Positions 1 through 5,215 of a stretch of DNA of 5,215 nucleotides are shown here, piece by piece. Made by a program: the position numbers and the translations under genes. The notes beneath the pieces were generated by a model that searched no databases, had not been told where the DNA came from, and worked only from the letters and a program-made list of their open reading frames with translations. The stretch is from a virus (Duplodnaviria > Heunggongvirae > Uroviricota > Caudoviricetes), in IMG/VR virus record IMGVR_UViG_2778261347_000025; one strand, given 5' to 3'. Position 1 is the stretch's first letter. Each line of letters begins with the position of its first letter.

Positions 1-1239
1 ATGAGCAGGGCAATTCATAGACTTAGCGACACTCTTTTACGAAAATTAAGCGGATCACCAACCACAAAAAACACCTTTTTTAATGATGGTGGCAACCTTA
101 GCGTAAGGCATTCAACCAATGGCCTGTTAACCTGGTATTTCACTTACAGGGCCGGAACAGGCAGGAAGGTAGCCCCTGAACGTCTGAGGCTGGGAAATTA
201 TCCAGATTTGAGCCTGAAAGCAGCCAGGGAAAAAGCGTCGCAGTGTCGCGCCTGGCTTGCTGAGGGGAAAAATCCACGCCATGAGCTTAATCACACCGTA
301 CAGGAAGCGTTATCACCTGTTACGGTTAAGGAAGCGCTCACTTACTGGCTTGAATCGTACGCGAAGGAAAAGCGCACAGATTACGAATCTCTGAAAAGCC
401 GGATCAATACACACATAATCAGCCATATTGGTGCTATGCCGCTGGAAAAATGCGAGCTACGCCACTGGCTGACCTGTTTTGATCAGCTTGCTATGCGTAA
501 TCCGGTATCAGCAGGATTTTTGTTACAGGTATGCAAGCAGGCGCTTAAGTACTGCCGCAAACGACGCTACGCAATTACCAACGTTCTAGATGATATGGTT
601 GTAGGTGATGTTGGGAAAAAAGCAGAAATAAGCGAGCGCGTACTAACAAACAAGGAGCTTGGGGAATTACTACGCGCCCTGGATGAAAAAATTTACACAC
701 CGTACTACAGCGCCCTGATTCGCCTCCTGATTGTCTTCGGATGCCGTACCACTGAGCTAAGACGCTCTGAGGTCCAGGAATGGGATTTTACAGAAATGCT
801 CTGGACTGTGCCGAAAGAACACAGCAAAACGAAGGTAGCAATATTCAGGCCAATACCGGAAGCGATCTTGCCGTTCGTAACGAAGCTGGTGGAGCAGAAC
901 CGACACACGGGCTTATTACTCGGAGAACTGAAAGGGCAATCATCTGTATCAGAGTACGGAAGAACGGCACACAGACGCATTAATCAAGCCCTCTGGACGT
1001 TGCACGACATCCGGCACACGTTTACAACGATGCTGAACGATTTAGGCGTGGATCCTCATGTAGTGGAGCAGCTAACCGCGCACCAGTTGCCAGGAATGCA
1101 ACGAGTCTATAATCACTCCCGTTATCTCGATGCAAAACGTGACGCTCTTAATCTATGGGTTGAGCGTCTCGAGCTTCTCCAGAACAATGATGAAAAAATC
1201 GTTGTTATGACCCCGCGAATTTACTCCCAAAATTCTTGA
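1..1239 (+). CDS. int: Tyrosine-type site-specific integrase, P4-like (412 aa)
   Basis: ORF track 1..1239. N-terminal pattern LSD..GGNLSVR..WYFTYR..LRLGNYPDLSLKAAREKA resembles the P4 integrase arm domain. C-terminal catalytic region has R in GCRTTELRR, H-x-x-R in HDIRHTF and the likely nucleophile Y in RVYNHSRY. ATG sits at window position 1, so a start further upstream cannot be excluded. Confidence 0.9.
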   Translation: MSRAIHRLSDTLLRKLSGSPTTKNTFFNDGGNLSVRHSTNGLLTWYFTYRAGTGRKVAPERLRLGNYPDLSLKAAREKASQCRAWLAEGKNPRHELNHTVQEALSPVTVKEALTYWLESYAKEKRTDYESLKSRINTHIISHIGAMPLEKCELRHWLTCFDQLAMRNPVSAGFLLQVCKQALKYCRKRRYAITNVLDDMVVGDVGKKAEISERVLTNKELGELLRALDEKIYTPYYSALIRLLIVFGCRTTELRRSEVQEWDFTEMLWTVPKEHSKTKVAIFRPIPEAILPFVTKLVEQNRHTGLLLGELKGQSSVSEYGRTAHRRINQALWTLHDIRHTFTTMLNDLGVDPHVVEQLTAHQLPGMQRVYNHSRYLDAKRDALNLWVERLELLQNNDEKIVVMTPRIYSQNS

Positions 1240-1648: not shown

Positions 1649-1858
1649 ATGCGTGAAATAAATGAAGATCGCGTAATCCGTGAGGATGAATGTCGTAAGT
1701 TAACTGGAGTGTGCCGCACTACACGTTACGAACTGGAGAAAAAAGGGCGCTTTCCGTCACGTCTTAATCTGGGCGGTCGTTCTGTAGGGTGGCTGCTGTC
1801 CGAGGTTATGGAATGGGTTAAAAGCAGGGATCGTATTAATTCAGGTAAGGCAGCGTAG
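1649..1858 (+). CDS. alpA: AlpA-family phage/island transcriptional regulator (69 aa)
   Basis: Sequence MREINEDRVIREDECRKLTGVCRTTRYELEKKGRFPSRLNLGGRSVGWLLSEVMEWV matches the AlpA helix-turn-helix pattern (..TG.SRST.Y.L...G.FP....LG.RSV.W...EV..W). ATG at 1649 has AGGT 6 nt upstream. The track ORF starts at GTG 1562, but that N-terminal extension is not AlpA-like and would make the protein longer than typical AlpA (about 70 aa). Confidence 0.85.
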   Translation: MREINEDRVIREDECRKLTGVCRTTRYELEKKGRFPSRLNLGGRSVGWLLSEVMEWVKSRDRINSGKAA

Positions 1859-1874
1859 GGGGAACATATGACAC

Positions 1875-1904
1875 ATAAAACAAAGGCGACCTGGGGCGGT
1901 CGCC
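1875..1904 (-). terminator. Rho-independent terminator, oriented for the minus strand (weakly bidirectional)
   Basis: GC-rich stem GGCGACC (1885-1891) / GGTCGCC (1898-1904) with a 6-nt loop. On the minus strand the stem is followed immediately by TTTGTTTTAT (1884-1875). On the plus strand, 26 nt after the alpA stop, the trailing tract is only AGTTTGG. Confidence 0.5.
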
Positions 1905-1968
1905 AGTTTGGAAACACTAAACATAAGCATGGCAATGATAGCCTCTATCAGGCTGGTGGGCAATGCTA

Positions 1969-2145
1969 TCAGTCTGTTTCAGTGCGTTGCCATAACTGCG
2001 AAGCTCTCTCCTTTGATGAGTATTCTTTAAGGTACTTCTCAAGGGCAAAAGAACACGGCGCGAATCGTTCTGATTCATGCTCTTTCTTTCTGCGTCGTCT
2101 TTTTCGTGCAGGTGATGTTTTTTCGGTTGATTCTTCGTTGGTCAT
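1969..2145 (-). CDS. Hypothetical small highly charged protein (58 aa), or the C-terminal part of a longer interrupted ORF
   Basis: Hand-translated minus-strand ORF, ATG 2145 to TGA 1969: MTNEESTEKTSPARKRRRRKKEHESERFAPCSFALEKYLKEYSSKERASQLWQRTETD. Below the 60-aa track threshold. No convincing Shine-Dalgarno. In the same frame as the upstream ORF 2382..2203. Terminator lies 64 nt downstream. Confidence 0.3.
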   Translation of the reverse strand: MTNEESTEKTSPARKRRRRKKEHESERFAPCSFALEKYLKEYSSKERASQLWQRTETD

Positions 2146-2202
2146 TGTGTGCGCCTGTAAAGCAATGCGCCGGAGTTCCTCACACCACGGCGCTGATAGT
2201 GA

Positions 2203-2382
2203 TTATTCTGATTCTTTGGCCTTGCGACGCTGGCGGCGTTTGATCTCGCCTCGCATGGCTGTAACGATAAATTGCGCAGTGCTCTCGCCTGTTTCTTTTA
2301 CTTGCTCCATAGCCTCAACAACTTCATGCGGGGCGCGAGCCTGTAATTTCTGTGATTTGTTATTGATATGGTCTCTTTCCAT
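2203..2382 (-). CDS. Small DNA-binding protein candidate with a ribbon-helix-helix-like pattern (59 aa)
   Basis: Hand-translated minus-strand ORF, ATG 2382 to TAA 2203: MERDHINNKSQKLQARAPHEVVEAMEQVKETGESTAQFIVTAMRGEIKRRQRRKAKESE. AAGGGA Shine-Dalgarno (2395-2390) 7 nt upstream of the ATG. Layout is a short basic N-terminal segment, helix, G-x-S turn, second helix with hydrophobic face, then a basic tail, as in Arc/CopG/MetJ-type RHH proteins (inferred by eye). The coding strand is purine-rich. Confidence 0.5.
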   Translation of the reverse strand: MERDHINNKSQKLQARAPHEVVEAMEQVKETGESTAQFIVTAMRGEIKRRQRRKAKESE

Positions 2383-2401
2383 TTCTGGTTCCCTTTGTGA
2401 T

Positions 2402-2483
2402 TACTGGAATCCAGTATACACGAAAAAGACCAAAACAAAACGCTTGAAGTGGATTCCACTTAGTGATTATACTGGAATCCAGT
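2402..2483. promoter_or_regulatory. Operator-like array of three palindromes sharing a TGGAWTCCA core
   Basis: Read directly: TACTGGA-A-TCCAGTA (2402-2416), AAGTGGA-T-TCCACTT (2447-2461), ACTGGA-A-TCCAGT (2471-2483). Centres at 2409, 2454 and 2477 give 45- and 23-bp spacing. Sites 1 and 3 share the upstream flank GTGATT(A). The array lies between the minus-strand ORF start (2382) and the plus-strand operon. Confidence 0.55.
2444..2473 (+). promoter_or_regulatory. Candidate sigma70 promoter for the plus-strand operon (TTGAAG -18- TATACT)
   Basis: -35-like TTGAAG (2444-2449) and -10-like TATACT (2468-2473). It overlaps palindromes 2 and 3. On the opposite strand a perfect TATAAT (reverse complement of 2466-2471) could be the -10 for the minus-strand unit. 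Hexamer matches only, no experimental support. Confidence 0.3.
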
Positions 2484-2578
2484 TGAGTGTTTATCACTCA
2501 ATGCAAACGAGGCTGAAAAGGATTGCCGTCCTTTCGCAGCCTCTGACCACCAACGATAGCGAAAGTATCGAGGTAGCT

Positions 2579-2782
2579 ATGAGAAATCATACCATACACC
2601 CGCAAGGGCGGGACTCGCACAACCTGAATAAATACATCTGGCGTTTTATCGCCCTGAGCACGGCACAACCGCGCGTGATTACCATCGAGGCCACCAGCGA
2701 ACAGGAAACGCGTCAGCAATCTCCTGATGGCTGCGTGATGGTATTCGCCGCCCGTATTCGTCAGGGGGTGTTCCATGCCTGA
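2579..2782 (+). CDS. Hypothetical small protein (67 aa), first gene of the primase operon
   Basis: ATG 2579 preceded by GAGGT (2570-2574). Translation MRNHTIHPQGRDSHNLNKYIWRFIALSTAQPRVITIEATSEQETRQQSPDGCVMVFAARIRQGVFHA, with E. coli-preferred codons (CTG, CCG, CGT, GCC, ACC). It is the 3' end of the track ORF 1868..2782. An in-frame ATG at 2501 (93 aa) lacks a ribosome-binding site. Confidence 0.5.
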   Translation: MRNHTIHPQGRDSHNLNKYIWRFIALSTAQPRVITIEATSEQETRQQSPDGCVMVFAARIRQGVFHA

Positions 2783-3095
2783 CATGACCAATTACCAGTA
2801 CCTGATTAATCCGCATTTTAACTGTGAGCATGATATTGCTAAAAAAGTTTATTCCGCTGCGGATGGGGCTACTGACAATATATCAATGGGTATTGCGTCA
2901 ATTGGTAGCCTGATGTGGCATGCGTCAGAAAATAAGGAATATGACGAAAAGACCATGCGCATTGATATGGGTAATATCGGTTTGTTACTGGCAATGCTTG
3001 GGCAGTTTGATATTTCGTTACGGTGCACCATTGAAAATGCCACAGATGCATTAAATGCCATAGAGAAAGCGAATACTGATTCAAATCGGGGATAA
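2775..3095 (+). CDS. Hypothetical acidic protein (106 aa)
   Basis: ORF track 2775..3095. AGGGGG (2763-2768) sits 6 nt upstream of ATG 2775. The start overlaps the previous stop by 8 nt (ATGCCTGA), indicating translational coupling. No family recognised by eye. Confidence 0.6.
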   Translation: MPDMTNYQYLINPHFNCEHDIAKKVYSAADGATDNISMGIASIGSLMWHASENKEYDEKTMRIDMGNIGLLLAMLGQFDISLRCTIENATDALNAIEKANTDSNRG

Positions 3096-3101
3096 ATAAT
3101 C

Positions 3102-3401
3102 ATGAGAACTTATTTATCTGGCTTGACTGCCAGCGGTTATGCACACCCCAAAATTATCCCCGGCGCTATTTATCTGGATAAGAACGGTAACAGAGTAACG
3201 GTAAAAGAACTGATGTTTGACCGTGTGTATTTTATCCGTGATGGCTATTCATTTCATAGTTCGCTGAACGTGGAGATCTTTATTAGCAGATTCAGGCGGG
3301 AAATCCCGCTTTCCAGAAATAACCATGTGTCATGTATCGATGTTGATAAAAAACTACAGGAACTGAAAAACATGATTGCCGCGTGGAGAGAGCAGAAATG
3401 A
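3102..3401 (+). CDS. Hypothetical protein (99 aa) immediately upstream of, and coupled to, the primase
   Basis: ORF track 3102..3401. GGGGA lies upstream of ATG 3102. Its TGA stop (3399-3401) overlaps the primase ATG (3398-3400) as ATGA. No family recognised by eye. Confidence 0.6.
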   Translation: MRTYLSGLTASGYAHPKIIPGAIYLDKNGNRVTVKELMFDRVYFIRDGYSFHSSLNVEIFISRFRREIPLSRNNHVSCIDVDKKLQELKNMIAAWREQK

Positions 3402-5215
3402 AAAAAGCGCCAAATTTAAAACACCAGCCACGTGACAAAATGACGGAAGTCATCATTTTTGCGGGTAGTGATGCGTGGGCACATGCGAAGCAGTGGCAGG
3501 AACAGGACGGGCGACTGGCTGGCGATAACGTGCCACCTGTCTGGCTTGGAGAGCAACAACTTGCCGAACTGGACAACCTGCAAATCGTACCGGACGGACG
3601 CTATCGCGTGCGTCTCTATCAGGCGGGGTTATTGAGTCCGGGGCTTGTTAATACCATCGGGCAGAAACTGGCAGTGGCAGGTGTCAGGGATGCTGATTAT
3701 TACCCTGAAGGAATGCACAGCCAGAAACGGGAGAACTGGCGCGAATATCTGGAACGTGAACGGGCAGAGCAGGCGGAAAAGAAAAAGGTAGTTGAACTGC
3801 CTGTAAAGAAAAAAGAGCGGGTAAAAGACGATAACGCTTCATCACTGGCGCTTAACCAGATGGGAGCAAGTCAACGCGGCGAAGTTCTCCTGGCACATTA
3901 TGGCGGTGAACTGGCGATTCATGCTGACTCTGACACTGTTCACTATTACAACGGCGTTGTATGGGAGCCAGTACAGGATAAAGAATTACAGCGAGCTATG
4001 GCACAGATTTTCATTGATGCGGAGATCAGCTATTCGCAGAACGCCATTAAATCGGCGGTCGATACCATGAAGTTAAGTTTGCCTGTAATGGGGAATACAG
4101 CCCGTAACCTGATTGGATTCAGTAACGGTGTTTTTGATACCCGGACAGGCGATTTTCGGGAGCATAACAAAAACGACTGGTTGTTAATTGCCAGTGAATT
4201 ACCTTTCAGCCCACCAGCAGAGGGGGAAACGCTGGCAACACATGCGCCGAATTTCTGGAAGTGGTTACGCCGTTCGGTGGCTGAGAATGACCGCAAGGCG
4301 GATCGCGTACTGGCTGCATTATTCATGGTGCTGGCGAACCGGTACGACTGGCAGTTATTCATTGAGGTAACAGGTCCAGGGGGAAGTGGTAAAAGCGTGA
4401 TGGCGGAGATTTGCACCATGCTGGCGGGTAAGGCCAACACGGTATCGGCAAGCATGAAGGCGCTGGAAGATGCCAGGGAACGCGCGTTAGTGGTTGGCTT
4501 TTCGCTGATTATCATGCCGGATATGACCCGTTACGCTGGTGATGGCGCAGGAATTAAGGCCATTACAGGCGGTGACAAGGTGGCAATCGACCCGAAGCAT
4601 AAAGCCCCCTACTCAACACGCATTCAGGCGGTAGTGTTGGCGGTGAACAATAACGCCATGTCATTCAGTGACCGCAGCGGGGGGATTTCACGTCGTCGGG
4701 TGATATTCAATTTTTCGGAGGTTGTACCGGAAAACGAACGCGACCCCATGCTGGCAGAAAAAATAGAAGGAGAGCTGGCGGTTGTGATTCGCCACCTGCT
4801 TACTCGTTTTTCTGACCAGGACGAAGCTAAACGCCTGCTGTATGAGCAGCAGAAATCAGAAGAAGCTCTGGTGATAAAACGCGAGGGCGATTCGCTGGTG
4901 GACTTCTGCGGCTATCTCATGTCGTCGGTAATGTGTGATGGTCTGTTAGTGGGTAATGCCGAAATTATTCCGTTCAGTCCGCGCAGGTATCTTTATCACG
5001 CCTATCTGGCATATATGAGGGCACACGGATTCGGTAAACCTGTAACACTGACGCGCTTCGGTAAAGATATGCCGGGGGCAATGGCGGAATATGGCAGGGA
5101 GTATATGAAACGGAAAACGAAGCACGGTTTGCGTTCAAATGTGACCCTGACAGAGGATTCAGAAGACTGGATGCCATCATGTGCATCGGTCACAAATGAC
5201 GATGGAAAAAATTAA
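3398..5215 (+). CDS. Replication protein: P4-family primase / SF3-helicase-type NTPase (605 aa)
   Basis: Track ORF 3383..5215 begins at a GTG; the more likely start is ATG 3398 (MKKAPNLKHQ...) with GGAGAG 7 nt upstream. Walker A GPGGSGKS at 4373-4396, followed by a hydrophobic-D segment LIIMPD (4505-4522), as in the phage/plasmid primase P4-family C-terminal domain. The N-terminal roughly 120 aa (EVIIFAGSDAW ... RDADYY) has an E...DxD pattern compatible with a small Toprim-like domain (tentative), then a K/E-rich linker. Stop TAA is at 5213-5215, the window end. Confidence 0.85.
   Translation: MKKAPNLKHQPRDKMTEVIIFAGSDAWAHAKQWQEQDGRLAGDNVPPVWLGEQQLAELDNLQIVPDGRYRVRLYQAGLLSPGLVNTIGQKLAVAGVRDADYYPEGMHSQKRENWREYLERERAEQAEKKKVVELPVKKKERVKDDNASSLALNQMGASQRGEVLLAHYGGELAIHADSDTVHYYNGVVWEPVQDKELQRAMAQIFIDAEISYSQNAIKSAVDTMKLSLPVMGNTARNLIGFSNGVFDTRTGDFREHNKNDWLLIASELPFSPPAEGETLATHAPNFWKWLRRSVAENDRKADRVLAALFMVLANRYDWQLFIEVTGPGGSGKSVMAEICTMLAGKANTVSASMKALEDARERALVVGFSLIIMPDMTRYAGDGAGIKAITGGDKVAIDPKHKAPYSTRIQAVVLAVNNNAMSFSDRSGGISRRRVIFNFSEVVPENERDPMLAEKIEGELAVVIRHLLTRFSDQDEAKRLLYEQQKSEEALVIKREGDSLVDFCGYLMSSVMCDGLLVGNAEIIPFSPRRYLYHAYLAYMRAHGFGKPVTLTRFGKDMPGAMAEYGREYMKRKTKHGLRSNVTLTEDSEDWMPSCASVTNDDGKN

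What the first reader, a model, noticed from the sequence alone, without database searches (positions are those of the whole stretch)
2203..2382. Unannotated 59-aa minus-strand ORF with a ribbon-helix-helix-like pattern, a candidate island repressor or antitoxin-type regulator
The ORF falls below the 60-aa track cut-off and would be missed by a naive ORF call. It has a good Shine-Dalgarno, a purine-rich coding strand, and a beta-strand / helix / G-x-S turn / helix / basic tail arrangement resembling Arc/CopG/MetJ-type proteins. It lies directly beside the palindromic operators and is transcribed divergently from the replication operon. RHH proteins are also the DNA-binding module of many antitoxins, so a regulatory or toxin-antitoxin-like role is possible.
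Basis: inference. Interest (0 to 1): 0.55.

Follow-up and report, generated by a model that had tools for sequence, protein, structure and literature searches.

The report
Small ribbon-helix-helix repressor of a phage satellite
The 59-codon gene is real and encodes a small DNA-binding protein that most likely switches off the replication genes of an E. coli phage-satellite island, a role the literature I could read describes as unclear for satellites of Gram-negative bacteria.

Summary
The ORF at 2203-2382 (minus strand) is a real gene under purifying selection. RefSeq already annotates it as WP_000439004.1, "YlcI/YnfO family protein", with no known function. It sits in a PICI-type phage satellite: int, alpA | orf58, ORF59 (leftward) | icd-like, DUF4222, primase (rightward).

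Three 13-bp pseudo-palindromes lie in the divergent promoter region. O1 covers the leftward -10/+1. O2 fills the spacer of the rightward promoter. O3 covers the rightward -10/+1.

In 43 related islands from other Enterobacterales the three-site layout is kept. The 5-bp operator core changes in step with β-strand residues 12 and 14 of ORF59. AlpA, the first rightward gene and the primase stay 92-100% identical across operator switches.

Best reading: ORF59 is the autoregulated immunity repressor of the replication operon, with at least eight specificity classes. The antitoxin reading is not supported.

The same module is present in EcCICFT073. The 2018 paper that characterised that island called a global repressor in Gram-negative PICIs "unclear".

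Binding and repression are inferred from sequence, not measured.

The parts
2203..2382 (-). ORF59: 59-aa RHH protein of the YlcI/YnfO family (WP_000439004.1). Predicted β-strand about residues 9-17, helix A 19-28, G32-E33-S34 turn, helix B 35-58 with an invariant basic GEIKRRQR segment.
2390..2395 (-). Shine-Dalgarno (AAGGGA) of ORF59, 7 nt before the ATG.
2403..2415 (.). Operator O1 (ACTGGAATCCAGT). It overlaps the 3' end of the conserved leftward -10 and the predicted leftward start site. Inferred autorepression site.
2413..2418 (-). Leftward -10 hexamer TATACT. It is TATACT, TATAAT or TATTCT at the same position in all 42 distinct related regulatory regions. The -35 is weak and T-rich.
2444..2449 (+). 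-35 (TTGAAG) of the rightward icd-like/primase promoter, overlapping the left end of O2 by 2 nt. TTGAnn sits at the same position in 41 of 42 related regions.
2448..2460 (.). Operator O2 (AGTGGATTCCACT), inside the spacer of the rightward promoter.
2468..2473 (+). -10 (TATACT) of the rightward promoter, 18 nt after the -35.
2471..2483 (.). Operator O3 (ACTGGAATCCAGT), covering the rightward -10 3' end and the predicted +1. It also lies in the spacer of a window-specific second leftward promoter-like site (-35 2493-2488, -10 2471-2466).
1969..2145 (-). orf58: small basic protein (RKRRRRKK), probably co-transcribed with ORF59. tblastn finds it only in the E. coli-type islands.
1885..1904 (-). 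Intrinsic-terminator-like hairpin followed by TTTGTTTTAT, ending the leftward ORF59-orf58 unit. There is no T-run on the plus strand.
2480..2578 (+). Structured leader of the rightward operon, with three hairpins.
2579..5215 (+). Proposed regulated operon: icd-like (2579-2782), orf106 (2775-3095), DUF4222 (3102-3401) and D5_N/DUF5906 primase-helicase (3398-5215).
1649..1858 (+). alpA (Phage_AlpA). In EcCICFT073 its homolog is the known activator required for PICI induction.
1..1239 (+). P4-type tyrosine integrase of the island.

Best explanation
ORF59 encodes a ribbon-helix-helix DNA-binding protein. It most likely acts as a dimer that inserts a two-stranded β-ribbon into the major groove of 11-13 bp pseudo-palindromes of the form (G/C)TG-N5-CA(C/G). 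In that ribbon, S10, K12, Q14 and R16 face the DNA and L13, A15 and A17 face the protein core. Invariant S10 and R16 would read the constant outer triplets. Variable residues 12 and 14 would read the variable 5-bp core. Three such operators lie in the divergent control region. O2 and O3 bracket the -10 of the rightward promoter that drives icd-like, DUF4222 and the primase. Occupancy there should block RNA polymerase and keep the satellite's replication module silent. O1 sits on the -10/+1 of the gene's own promoter and should give negative autoregulation. ORF59 is therefore the immunity-type repressor of this PICI-class satellite. It has at least eight operator/recognition-strand specificity classes that are exchanged between otherwise near-identical islands. 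What is shown: the gene is real, the fold is RHH, the operator layout is conserved, and operator and protein covary. What is inferred: physical binding, the direction of regulation, and the link to AlpA- and helper-dependent induction.
Against: There is no binding, footprint, reporter or expression data. Pfam RHH families match only below their cut-offs (16 bits against 28.3). Foldseek against the PDB found nothing. Operators and the N-terminal codons are adjacent, so part of the covariation could reflect linkage. The pair counts are not phylogenetically independent. The leftward promoter has a poor -35, so start sites are uncertain. Published work on EcCICFT073 explains induction through the activator AlpA without invoking a repressor.
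Confidence: 0.72

Rival explanations
1. ORF59 binds the same operators, but mainly as an activator or Cro-like switch protein for one of the divergent promoters. It would not be the repressor that keeps the island quiescent.
For: The leftward promoter has a weak -35 in nearly all loci, as activator-dependent promoters often do. Some RHH proteins, such as AmrZ, both activate and repress.
Against: All three sites overlap core promoter elements (spacer, -10, +1) rather than upstream activator positions. The gene occupies the divergent-regulator position that Rpr/Stl takes in Gram-positive PICIs, although int lies on the opposite strand here.
Confidence: 0.12
2. ORF59 is the RHH antitoxin of a type II toxin-antitoxin pair with orf58 as the toxin. 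The palindromes would serve only for autoregulation of the pair.
Against: tblastn finds orf58 only in the three E. coli loci (L001-L003) among the 49 loci held then, while ORF59 and its operators persist in all the other genera. In many loci alpA follows ORF59 within about 230 nt. The two genes are separated by 57 nt and are not translationally coupled. orf58 has no Pfam, NCBIfam or PADLOC match above noise. ORF59 lacks a C-terminal toxin-binding extension. Two of the three operators sit on the promoter of the opposite operon.
Confidence: 0.05
3. The palindromes are bound by another island or host protein (AlpA, Icd-like protein, primase/iteron binding, or a host factor), and ORF59 has an unrelated role.
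For: PHROGs labels the icd-like family 'transcriptional repressor'. PICI replication proteins are known to bind repeats.
Against: AlpA, the first rightward gene and the primase stay 92-100% identical while operator cores switch class. Icd-like genes are not detected in many loci that keep the operators. A host factor cannot explain island-specific cores within one genus.
Confidence: 0.06
4. The ORF is a chance open frame and is not expressed.
For: It is short, and no expression data were available to me.
Against: dN/dS is about 0.21 and below 1 in 638 of 638 pairs. Start, SD and length are conserved across genera. The exact protein is seen on at least 1000 contigs. The fold prediction is confident.
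Confidence: 0.02

Closest known systems
Arc and Mnt repressors of the phage P22 immI region
   Different: There is no significant pairwise sequence similarity. ORF59 has three operators with fixed 45-bp and about 23-bp spacing, not one. It carries an invariant basic C-terminal helix extension (GEIKRRQR). Its target is a satellite replication operon, not an antirepressor gene.
Stl/Rpr master repressors of Gram-positive PICIs (SaPIs)
   Same: Both lie between the integrase side and the replication module and are transcribed divergently from the replication operon. The proposed role is the same: keeping the island silent until a helper phage arrives.
   Different: No homology was detected. ORF59 is a 59-aa RHH with no HTH or other Pfam domain match. 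In Gram-positive PICIs int is co-oriented with rpr, whereas here int and alpA are on the opposite strand. Stl is inactivated by binding a helper-phage protein, and whether that applies here is unknown. Gram-negative PICIs additionally require AlpA.
CopG / omega / CopA_SO-type plasmid and antitoxin RHH regulators
   Different: ORF59 has no partner toxin, partition ATPase or copy-control RNA context. It belongs to a separate narrow sequence family, with only 92 representatives at 50% identity among 1.84 billion proteins.
YlcI (DLP12) and YnfO (Qin) of E. coli K-12, the namesakes of NCBIfam NF041551 and Pfam DUF3950
   Same: Both match NF041551: ORF59 at 72.3 bits and K-12 YlcI at 37.6 bits. Both show the R-x-P...G-S...helix pattern of an RHH.
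   Different: Pairwise similarity is insignificant (E 0.66). ORF59 does not match Pfam DUF3950, whereas YlcI does at 72.8 bits. YlcI lies divergent from the terminase gene nohD in a lambdoid prophage, not beside a primase operon. I found no function reported for either protein.
Heteroimmune lambdoid CI/Cro-operator modules
   Same: Repressor recognition residues and operators are exchanged together as a cassette between otherwise similar elements, which creates immunity classes.
   Different: The fold is RHH, not HTH. The protein is much smaller, and there is no sign of a LexA-like self-cleavage domain.

Membership tests
Ribbon-helix-helix (Arc/MetJ/CopG) superfamily | β-strand, helix A, turn, helix B topology in about 45-50 residues | tested here: met
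   AF2 model pLDDT 87.9: extended residues 9-18 (pLDDT about 91), helix 19-28, helix 35-58. No DSSP strand is called in the monomer, as expected without the partner chain.
Ribbon-helix-helix (Arc/MetJ/CopG) superfamily | Structural superposition on solved RHH proteins | tested here: met
Ribbon-helix-helix (Arc/MetJ/CopG) superfamily | G-x-S/T/N turn before helix B, and alternating polar/hydrophobic residues in the β-strand | tested here: met
   G32-E33-S34. E33 is invariant and G32 nearly so in the 38-protein set. S10/K12/Q14/R16 are polar and L13/A15/A17 are hydrophobic.
Ribbon-helix-helix (Arc/MetJ/CopG) superfamily | Match to a curated RHH sequence family above threshold | tested here: not met
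   PSK_trans_fac scores 16 bits against a cut-off of 28.3. CB_ParB_C and HicB hits in homologs are also weak. A PDB profile search gave nothing significant.
Ribbon-helix-helix (Arc/MetJ/CopG) superfamily | Obligate dimer forming an antiparallel β-ribbon that binds the DNA major groove | not testable with these tools
Support is indirect only, from the pseudo-palindromic sites and the residue 12/14-operator covariation.
YlcI/YnfO family (NCBIfam NF041551) | Score above the curated cut-off of the family model | tested here: met
   72.3 bits against 30, covering model positions 1-42 of 42. RefSeq uses the same name.
Pfam DUF3950 | Score above the gathering threshold | tested here: not met
   No DUF3950 match at E ≤ 1 for ORF59 or for the 42 homologs. 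K-12 YlcI scores 72.8 bits.
Type II toxin-antitoxin module (RHH antitoxin) | Conserved, tightly linked toxin gene in the same operon | tested here: not met
   orf58 is 57 nt downstream and tblastn finds it only in L001-L003 among the 49 loci held then. It has no toxin or defence family match.
Type II toxin-antitoxin module (RHH antitoxin) | C-terminal toxin-binding region on the antitoxin | tested here: not met
   The protein ends about 7 residues after the invariant basic end of helix B.
PICI master repressor (Stl/Rpr-like, functional class) | Encoded between int and the replication module and divergent from the replication operon | tested here: met
PICI master repressor (Stl/Rpr-like, functional class) | Operators overlapping the promoter of the replication operon | tested here: met
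   O2 lies in the spacer and O3 at the -10/+1 of the rightward promoter. The arrangement is in register in 41 of 42 regions.
PICI master repressor (Stl/Rpr-like, functional class) | Represses island genes, and is relieved by a helper-phage product | not testable with these tools
   This needs reporter, deletion and interaction experiments.
PICI master repressor (Stl/Rpr-like, functional class) | Sequence or fold homology to Stl/Rpr | tested here: inconclusive
   ORF59 is a 59-aa RHH with no HTH or other Pfam domain match. No Stl/Rpr sequence was compared directly. Any equivalence would be functional, not by descent.

The most novel reading that the evidence does not exclude
ORF59 and its relatives are the master repressor of enterobacterial PICIs and capsid-forming PICIs, including the prototype EcCICFT073. 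They would be the functional counterpart of Stl/Rpr that the 2018 description of Gram-negative PICIs could not identify. The eight or more recognition-strand/operator classes would define satellite immunity groups. Induction would work by overriding this repressor. One route is AlpA-driven plus-strand transcription that runs from alpA, antisense through orf58 and ORF59, across the operators into the primase operon. Another is a helper-phage protein that targets the invariant GEIKRRQR helix.
Probability: 0.45. Interest if true: 0.75.

Novelty: new member of a known kind. Interest (0 to 1): 0.6.

Why it matters
Phage satellites of the PICI type move virulence, resistance and defence genes between enterobacteria. 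For Gram-positive PICIs the switch is a repressor (Stl) that helper-phage proteins inactivate. For Gram-negative PICIs only the activator AlpA is known. [quoted passage not shown] This analysis gives a function-unknown family (YlcI/YnfO; phrog_949, "unknown function") a fold, a DNA target and a probable role. The same gene and operator layout are present in EcCICFT073. The analysis also predicts which two residues set operator specificity. That makes the regulatory model directly testable with a gel shift, a reporter and a two-residue swap.

Tried and rejected
- An HMM profile search of PDB sequences gave only chance hits.
hhalign gave a short alignment in the correct register but at low probability (17%).
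- tblastn of ORF59 against 50,697 phage records found nothing at E ≤ 1e-3. I therefore could not examine phage-borne relatives apart from K-12 YlcI.
- Rfam at E ≤ 1 over the whole window found nothing, so there is no C4/IsrK-type RNA beside the icd-like gene.
- PADLOC found nothing for ORF59, orf58, the icd-like gene or orf106.
- The toxin-antitoxin reading was rejected because no partner is conserved.
- Operator binding by AlpA, the Icd-like protein or the primase was rejected because those proteins stay near-identical across operator-class switches.
- The promoter scan suggested a second leftward promoter (-35 2493-2488, -10 2471-2466). It is not positionally conserved in other loci, so I treat it as window-specific.
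- My first ORF-based extraction of the "first rightward gene" missed the icd-like gene, because a long spurious frame runs through it. The control therefore used the 115-141-aa rightward ORFs that could be extracted cleanly.
- Literature searches for YlcI/YnfO/DUF3950, for PICI with ribbon-helix-helix, and for PICI with AlpA and operator found no functional study. The library lacks most subscription journals.

Full report
**1. What the window is**

The window carries the left half of a PICI-type phage satellite of E. coli.
- The plus strand has a P4-type integrase (1-1239) and alpA (1649-1858).
- The minus strand has two small genes, orf58 (2145-1969) and ORF59 (2382-2203).
- The plus strand then has an icd-like gene (2579-2782), orf106, a DUF4222 gene and a D5_N/DUF5906 primase-helicase (3398-5215).
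- The window is 100% identical over the 741 bases tested to an island in E. coli O157 AR-0427. That island lies between cspD/yljB and clpS and continues into terS and a major capsid gene.
- A total of 1125 of 5426 complete E. coli genomes match at least part of the 741-bp region around the finding.

**2.

- The ORF is at the stated coordinates, is 59 aa long and has a GGGA Shine-Dalgarno 7 nt upstream. Its coding strand is 62% purine.
- It is not unannotated. RefSeq lists WP_000439004.1, "YlcI/YnfO family protein".
- NCBIfam NF041551 scores 72.3 bits against a cut-off of 30. PHROGs places it in phrog_949, function unknown.
- It is a real gene. Homologs of 57-64 aa occur across Enterobacterales.
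- Pairwise dN/dS has a median of 0.21 and is below 1 in all 638 pairs.
- The family is narrow: 92 representatives at 50% identity among 1.84 billion proteins. Some members carry a C-terminal coiled-coil extension.

**3. Fold**

- Pfam gives only sub-threshold hits. The most frequent (PSK_trans_fac in 10 of 43 members, CB_ParB_C in 4) and HicB belong to RHH-containing families.
- AlphaFold2 with a 43-sequence alignment gives pLDDT 87.9: an extended N-terminal segment, helix 19-28 and helix 35-58.
- Foldseek finds nothing.
- The sequence shows the RHH hallmarks. Polar and hydrophobic residues alternate in the strand: S10, K12, Q14 and R16 against L13, A15 and A17. R16-x-P18 precedes helix A. A G32-E33-S34 turn precedes helix B.
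- hhalign places K12/Q14/R16 on Arc Q9/N11/R13. The probability is low, but the register is the same as in the structural match. From my knowledge of the Arc-operator complex, those are Arc's base-contacting residues.

**4. Operators and promoters**

- ASTGGAWTCCAST occurs three times, at 2403, 2448 and 2471. The expectation is 0.23, and 0 of 200 shuffles reach three.
- The only other match at up to 2 mismatches in 18 kb that includes the whole island is a 2-mismatch hit inside clpA, outside the island.
- The rightward promoter (-35 TTGAAG 2444-2449, -10 TATACT 2468-2473) has O2 in its spacer and O3 over its -10/+1.
- On the ORF59 strand, a TATACT hexamer (2418-2413) directly precedes and overlaps O1.
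- A terminator-like hairpin with a T-run on the minus strand (1904-1885) closes the ORF59-orf58 unit.

**5. Comparative test**

- A scan of one genome per species returned 46 loci. In most of them the homolog lies between int-alpA and a primase-containing rightward module, on the opposite strand.
- Anchored on the start codon, the control regions share one layout:
  - a near-invariant GTATACTG followed by O1;
  - O2 exactly 45 bp upstream in 41 of 43 scored loci;
  - TCAA after O2, which is the rightward -35 TTGAnn, in register in 41 of 42 distinct regions with a TAnnnT 17-18 nt away;
  - O3 a further 22-35 bp upstream of O2.
- Each site is (G/C)TG-N5-CA(C/G). The outer triplets are constant and the inner five bases differ between islands.
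- The inner core tracks the recognition strand:

| Recognition strand (residues 9-18) | Operator |
|---|---|
| KSQK[LVI]QARAP | TGGAnTCCA |
| KSQKMSARVP | TGGCACCCA |
| KS[KR]KLEARVP | GTGTCAGCCAC |
| KSQQLNARFP | GTGAATCGCAC |
| KSQMTTVRIP | GTGTATTTCAC |
| KSQ[AS]LK[AS]RVP | GTGTGGCCCAC |
| KS[QK]KMQARVP | GTGTGCTCCAC |

  Further classes appear in single loci.
- Residue 14 carries 92% of the operator-class entropy. Residue 12 has MI/H of 0.93. Residues 7, 9, 10 and 16 are invariant in this set.
- Over pairs of non-redundant loci, identity at residues 12+14 against identity of the O2 core gives 106/29/5/563. Pairs are not independent, so this is descriptive only.
- The other candidate binders do not track the operators:
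  - The first rightward gene is 95-96% identical across three operator classes.
  - AlpA is 100% identical across classes.
  - The primase is 92-95% identical.
- The exchanged cassette is therefore the operators plus the N-terminal half of ORF59. This is what a recognition module should look like.

**6. Mechanism**

- I conclude that ORF59 binds O1-O3. Confidence is about 0.8 for binding and about 0.7 for the full repressor model.
- By position, it should repress the icd-like/DUF4222/primase operon at O2 and O3.
- It should repress itself at O1.
- The invariant C-terminal GEIKRRQR stretch is unexplained. It may contact DNA backbone, mediate dimer-dimer cooperation, or be the surface through which induction acts.
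- How this fits with AlpA is inference. AlpA is an activator required for induction of EcCICFT073 and EcCIEDL933, and helper phages switch on alpA.
- The hairpin after alpA has a T-run only on the minus strand. AlpA-dependent plus-strand transcription could therefore run antisense through orf58 and ORF59 into the rightward operon. I did not test this.

**7. Rivals**

- The antitoxin reading fails on partner conservation. tblastn finds orf58 only in the three E. coli loci L001-L003, and it is also present in EcCICFT073. It matches no toxin or defence model.
- Binding by another protein fails the mosaic controls in section 5.
- An activator or Cro-like role cannot be excluded without reporters.

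**8. Relation to what is known**

- Mechanistically this resembles P22 Arc/Mnt and CopG-type RHH repressors. In position it resembles Stl/Rpr of Gram-positive PICIs, although int is on the opposite strand here.
- It is a member of NCBIfam YlcI/YnfO, but not of Pfam DUF3950.
- It is only remotely related to K-12 YlcI, which sits divergent from nohD in the DLP12 prophage.
- EcCICFT073, the prototype Gram-negative PICI, carries the same module. C_RS30120 has a KSQALKARVP strand and GTGTGGCCCAC operators.
- A 2026 survey lists "YlcI/YnfO family protein" only as an accessory gene of Enterobacter cf-PICIs (PMC13612085).
- I found no functional study in the searchable library. That library omits most subscription journals, so prior work may exist.

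**9. Verdict**

The RHH and regulator interpretation is supported, and the antitoxin alternative is not. The protein type is known, and what is new is the assignment of fold, operators and probable role to a function-unknown family. I classify it as a new member of a known kind, with interest 0.6.

Noticed in passing
window 1969-2145 (-): orf58 is a very basic 58-aa protein (SPARKRRRRKKEHESERFAPC...) that follows ORF59 on the same strand. It is annotated 'hypothetical' (WP_172435545.1) and falls in phrog_21027. It is conserved in E. coli-type islands including EcCICFT073, with pN/pS of 0.15/0.38. tblastn does not detect it in the loci from other genera. Its function is unknown.
   Followed up: partly
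window 2480-2578 (+): The leader of the rightward operon folds into three hairpins (MFE -34 kcal/mol, z = -3.8, 0 of 200 shuffles as stable). Its 3' part (ccaccaacgatagcgaaagtatcgaggtagctatg) is kept in islands that have different operators (L003, CFT073). It matches no Rfam family. It could be a regulatory leader for the icd-like gene.
   Followed up: partly
window 1885-1904: This hairpin has a good T-run only on the minus strand. It should end the ORF59-orf58 transcript but may let alpA transcription read through, antisense to both small genes, towards the primase operon.
   Followed up: no
window 1868-2782 (+): A 304-aa open frame runs antisense through orf58 and ORF59 and into the icd-like gene. 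It is almost certainly spurious. RefSeq annotates a partial pseudo 'hypothetical protein' at the corresponding place in another island (L003 2839-3286).
   Followed up: partly
L002 (NZ_CP027325.1) 3342-3521 and 3939-6682: This related island has a disrupted icd-like region and a frameshifted primase. It still keeps ORF59 (identical over residues 1-57) and all three operators. The regulator appears to be retained in a decaying island.
   Followed up: no
L050 (E. coli K-12, DLP12) 4252-4446 (-): K-12 YlcI (MSTKNRTRRTTTRNIRFPNQMIEQINIALEQKGSGNFSAWVIEACRRRL...) also shows an RHH-like pattern. It is divergent from the terminase gene nohD across a 388-bp gap. The lambdoid namesakes of the family may be regulators as well.
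   Followed up: partly
P0141, P0145, P0153, P0155, P0164, P0170, P0178: Family members of about 100-130 aa have the same N-terminal RHH-like domain, then GEIARRQ and a predicted coiled-coil-like tail in place of the short basic end. They may be an oligomerising variant.
   Followed up: no
L030-L040 (Pectobacterium loci), upstream of the homolog: In the KSQQLNARFP class, O3 lies 35 bp from O2 rather than about 23 bp, while the O1-O2 spacing stays at 45 bp. The O2-O3 geometry is therefore class-specific.
   Followed up: no
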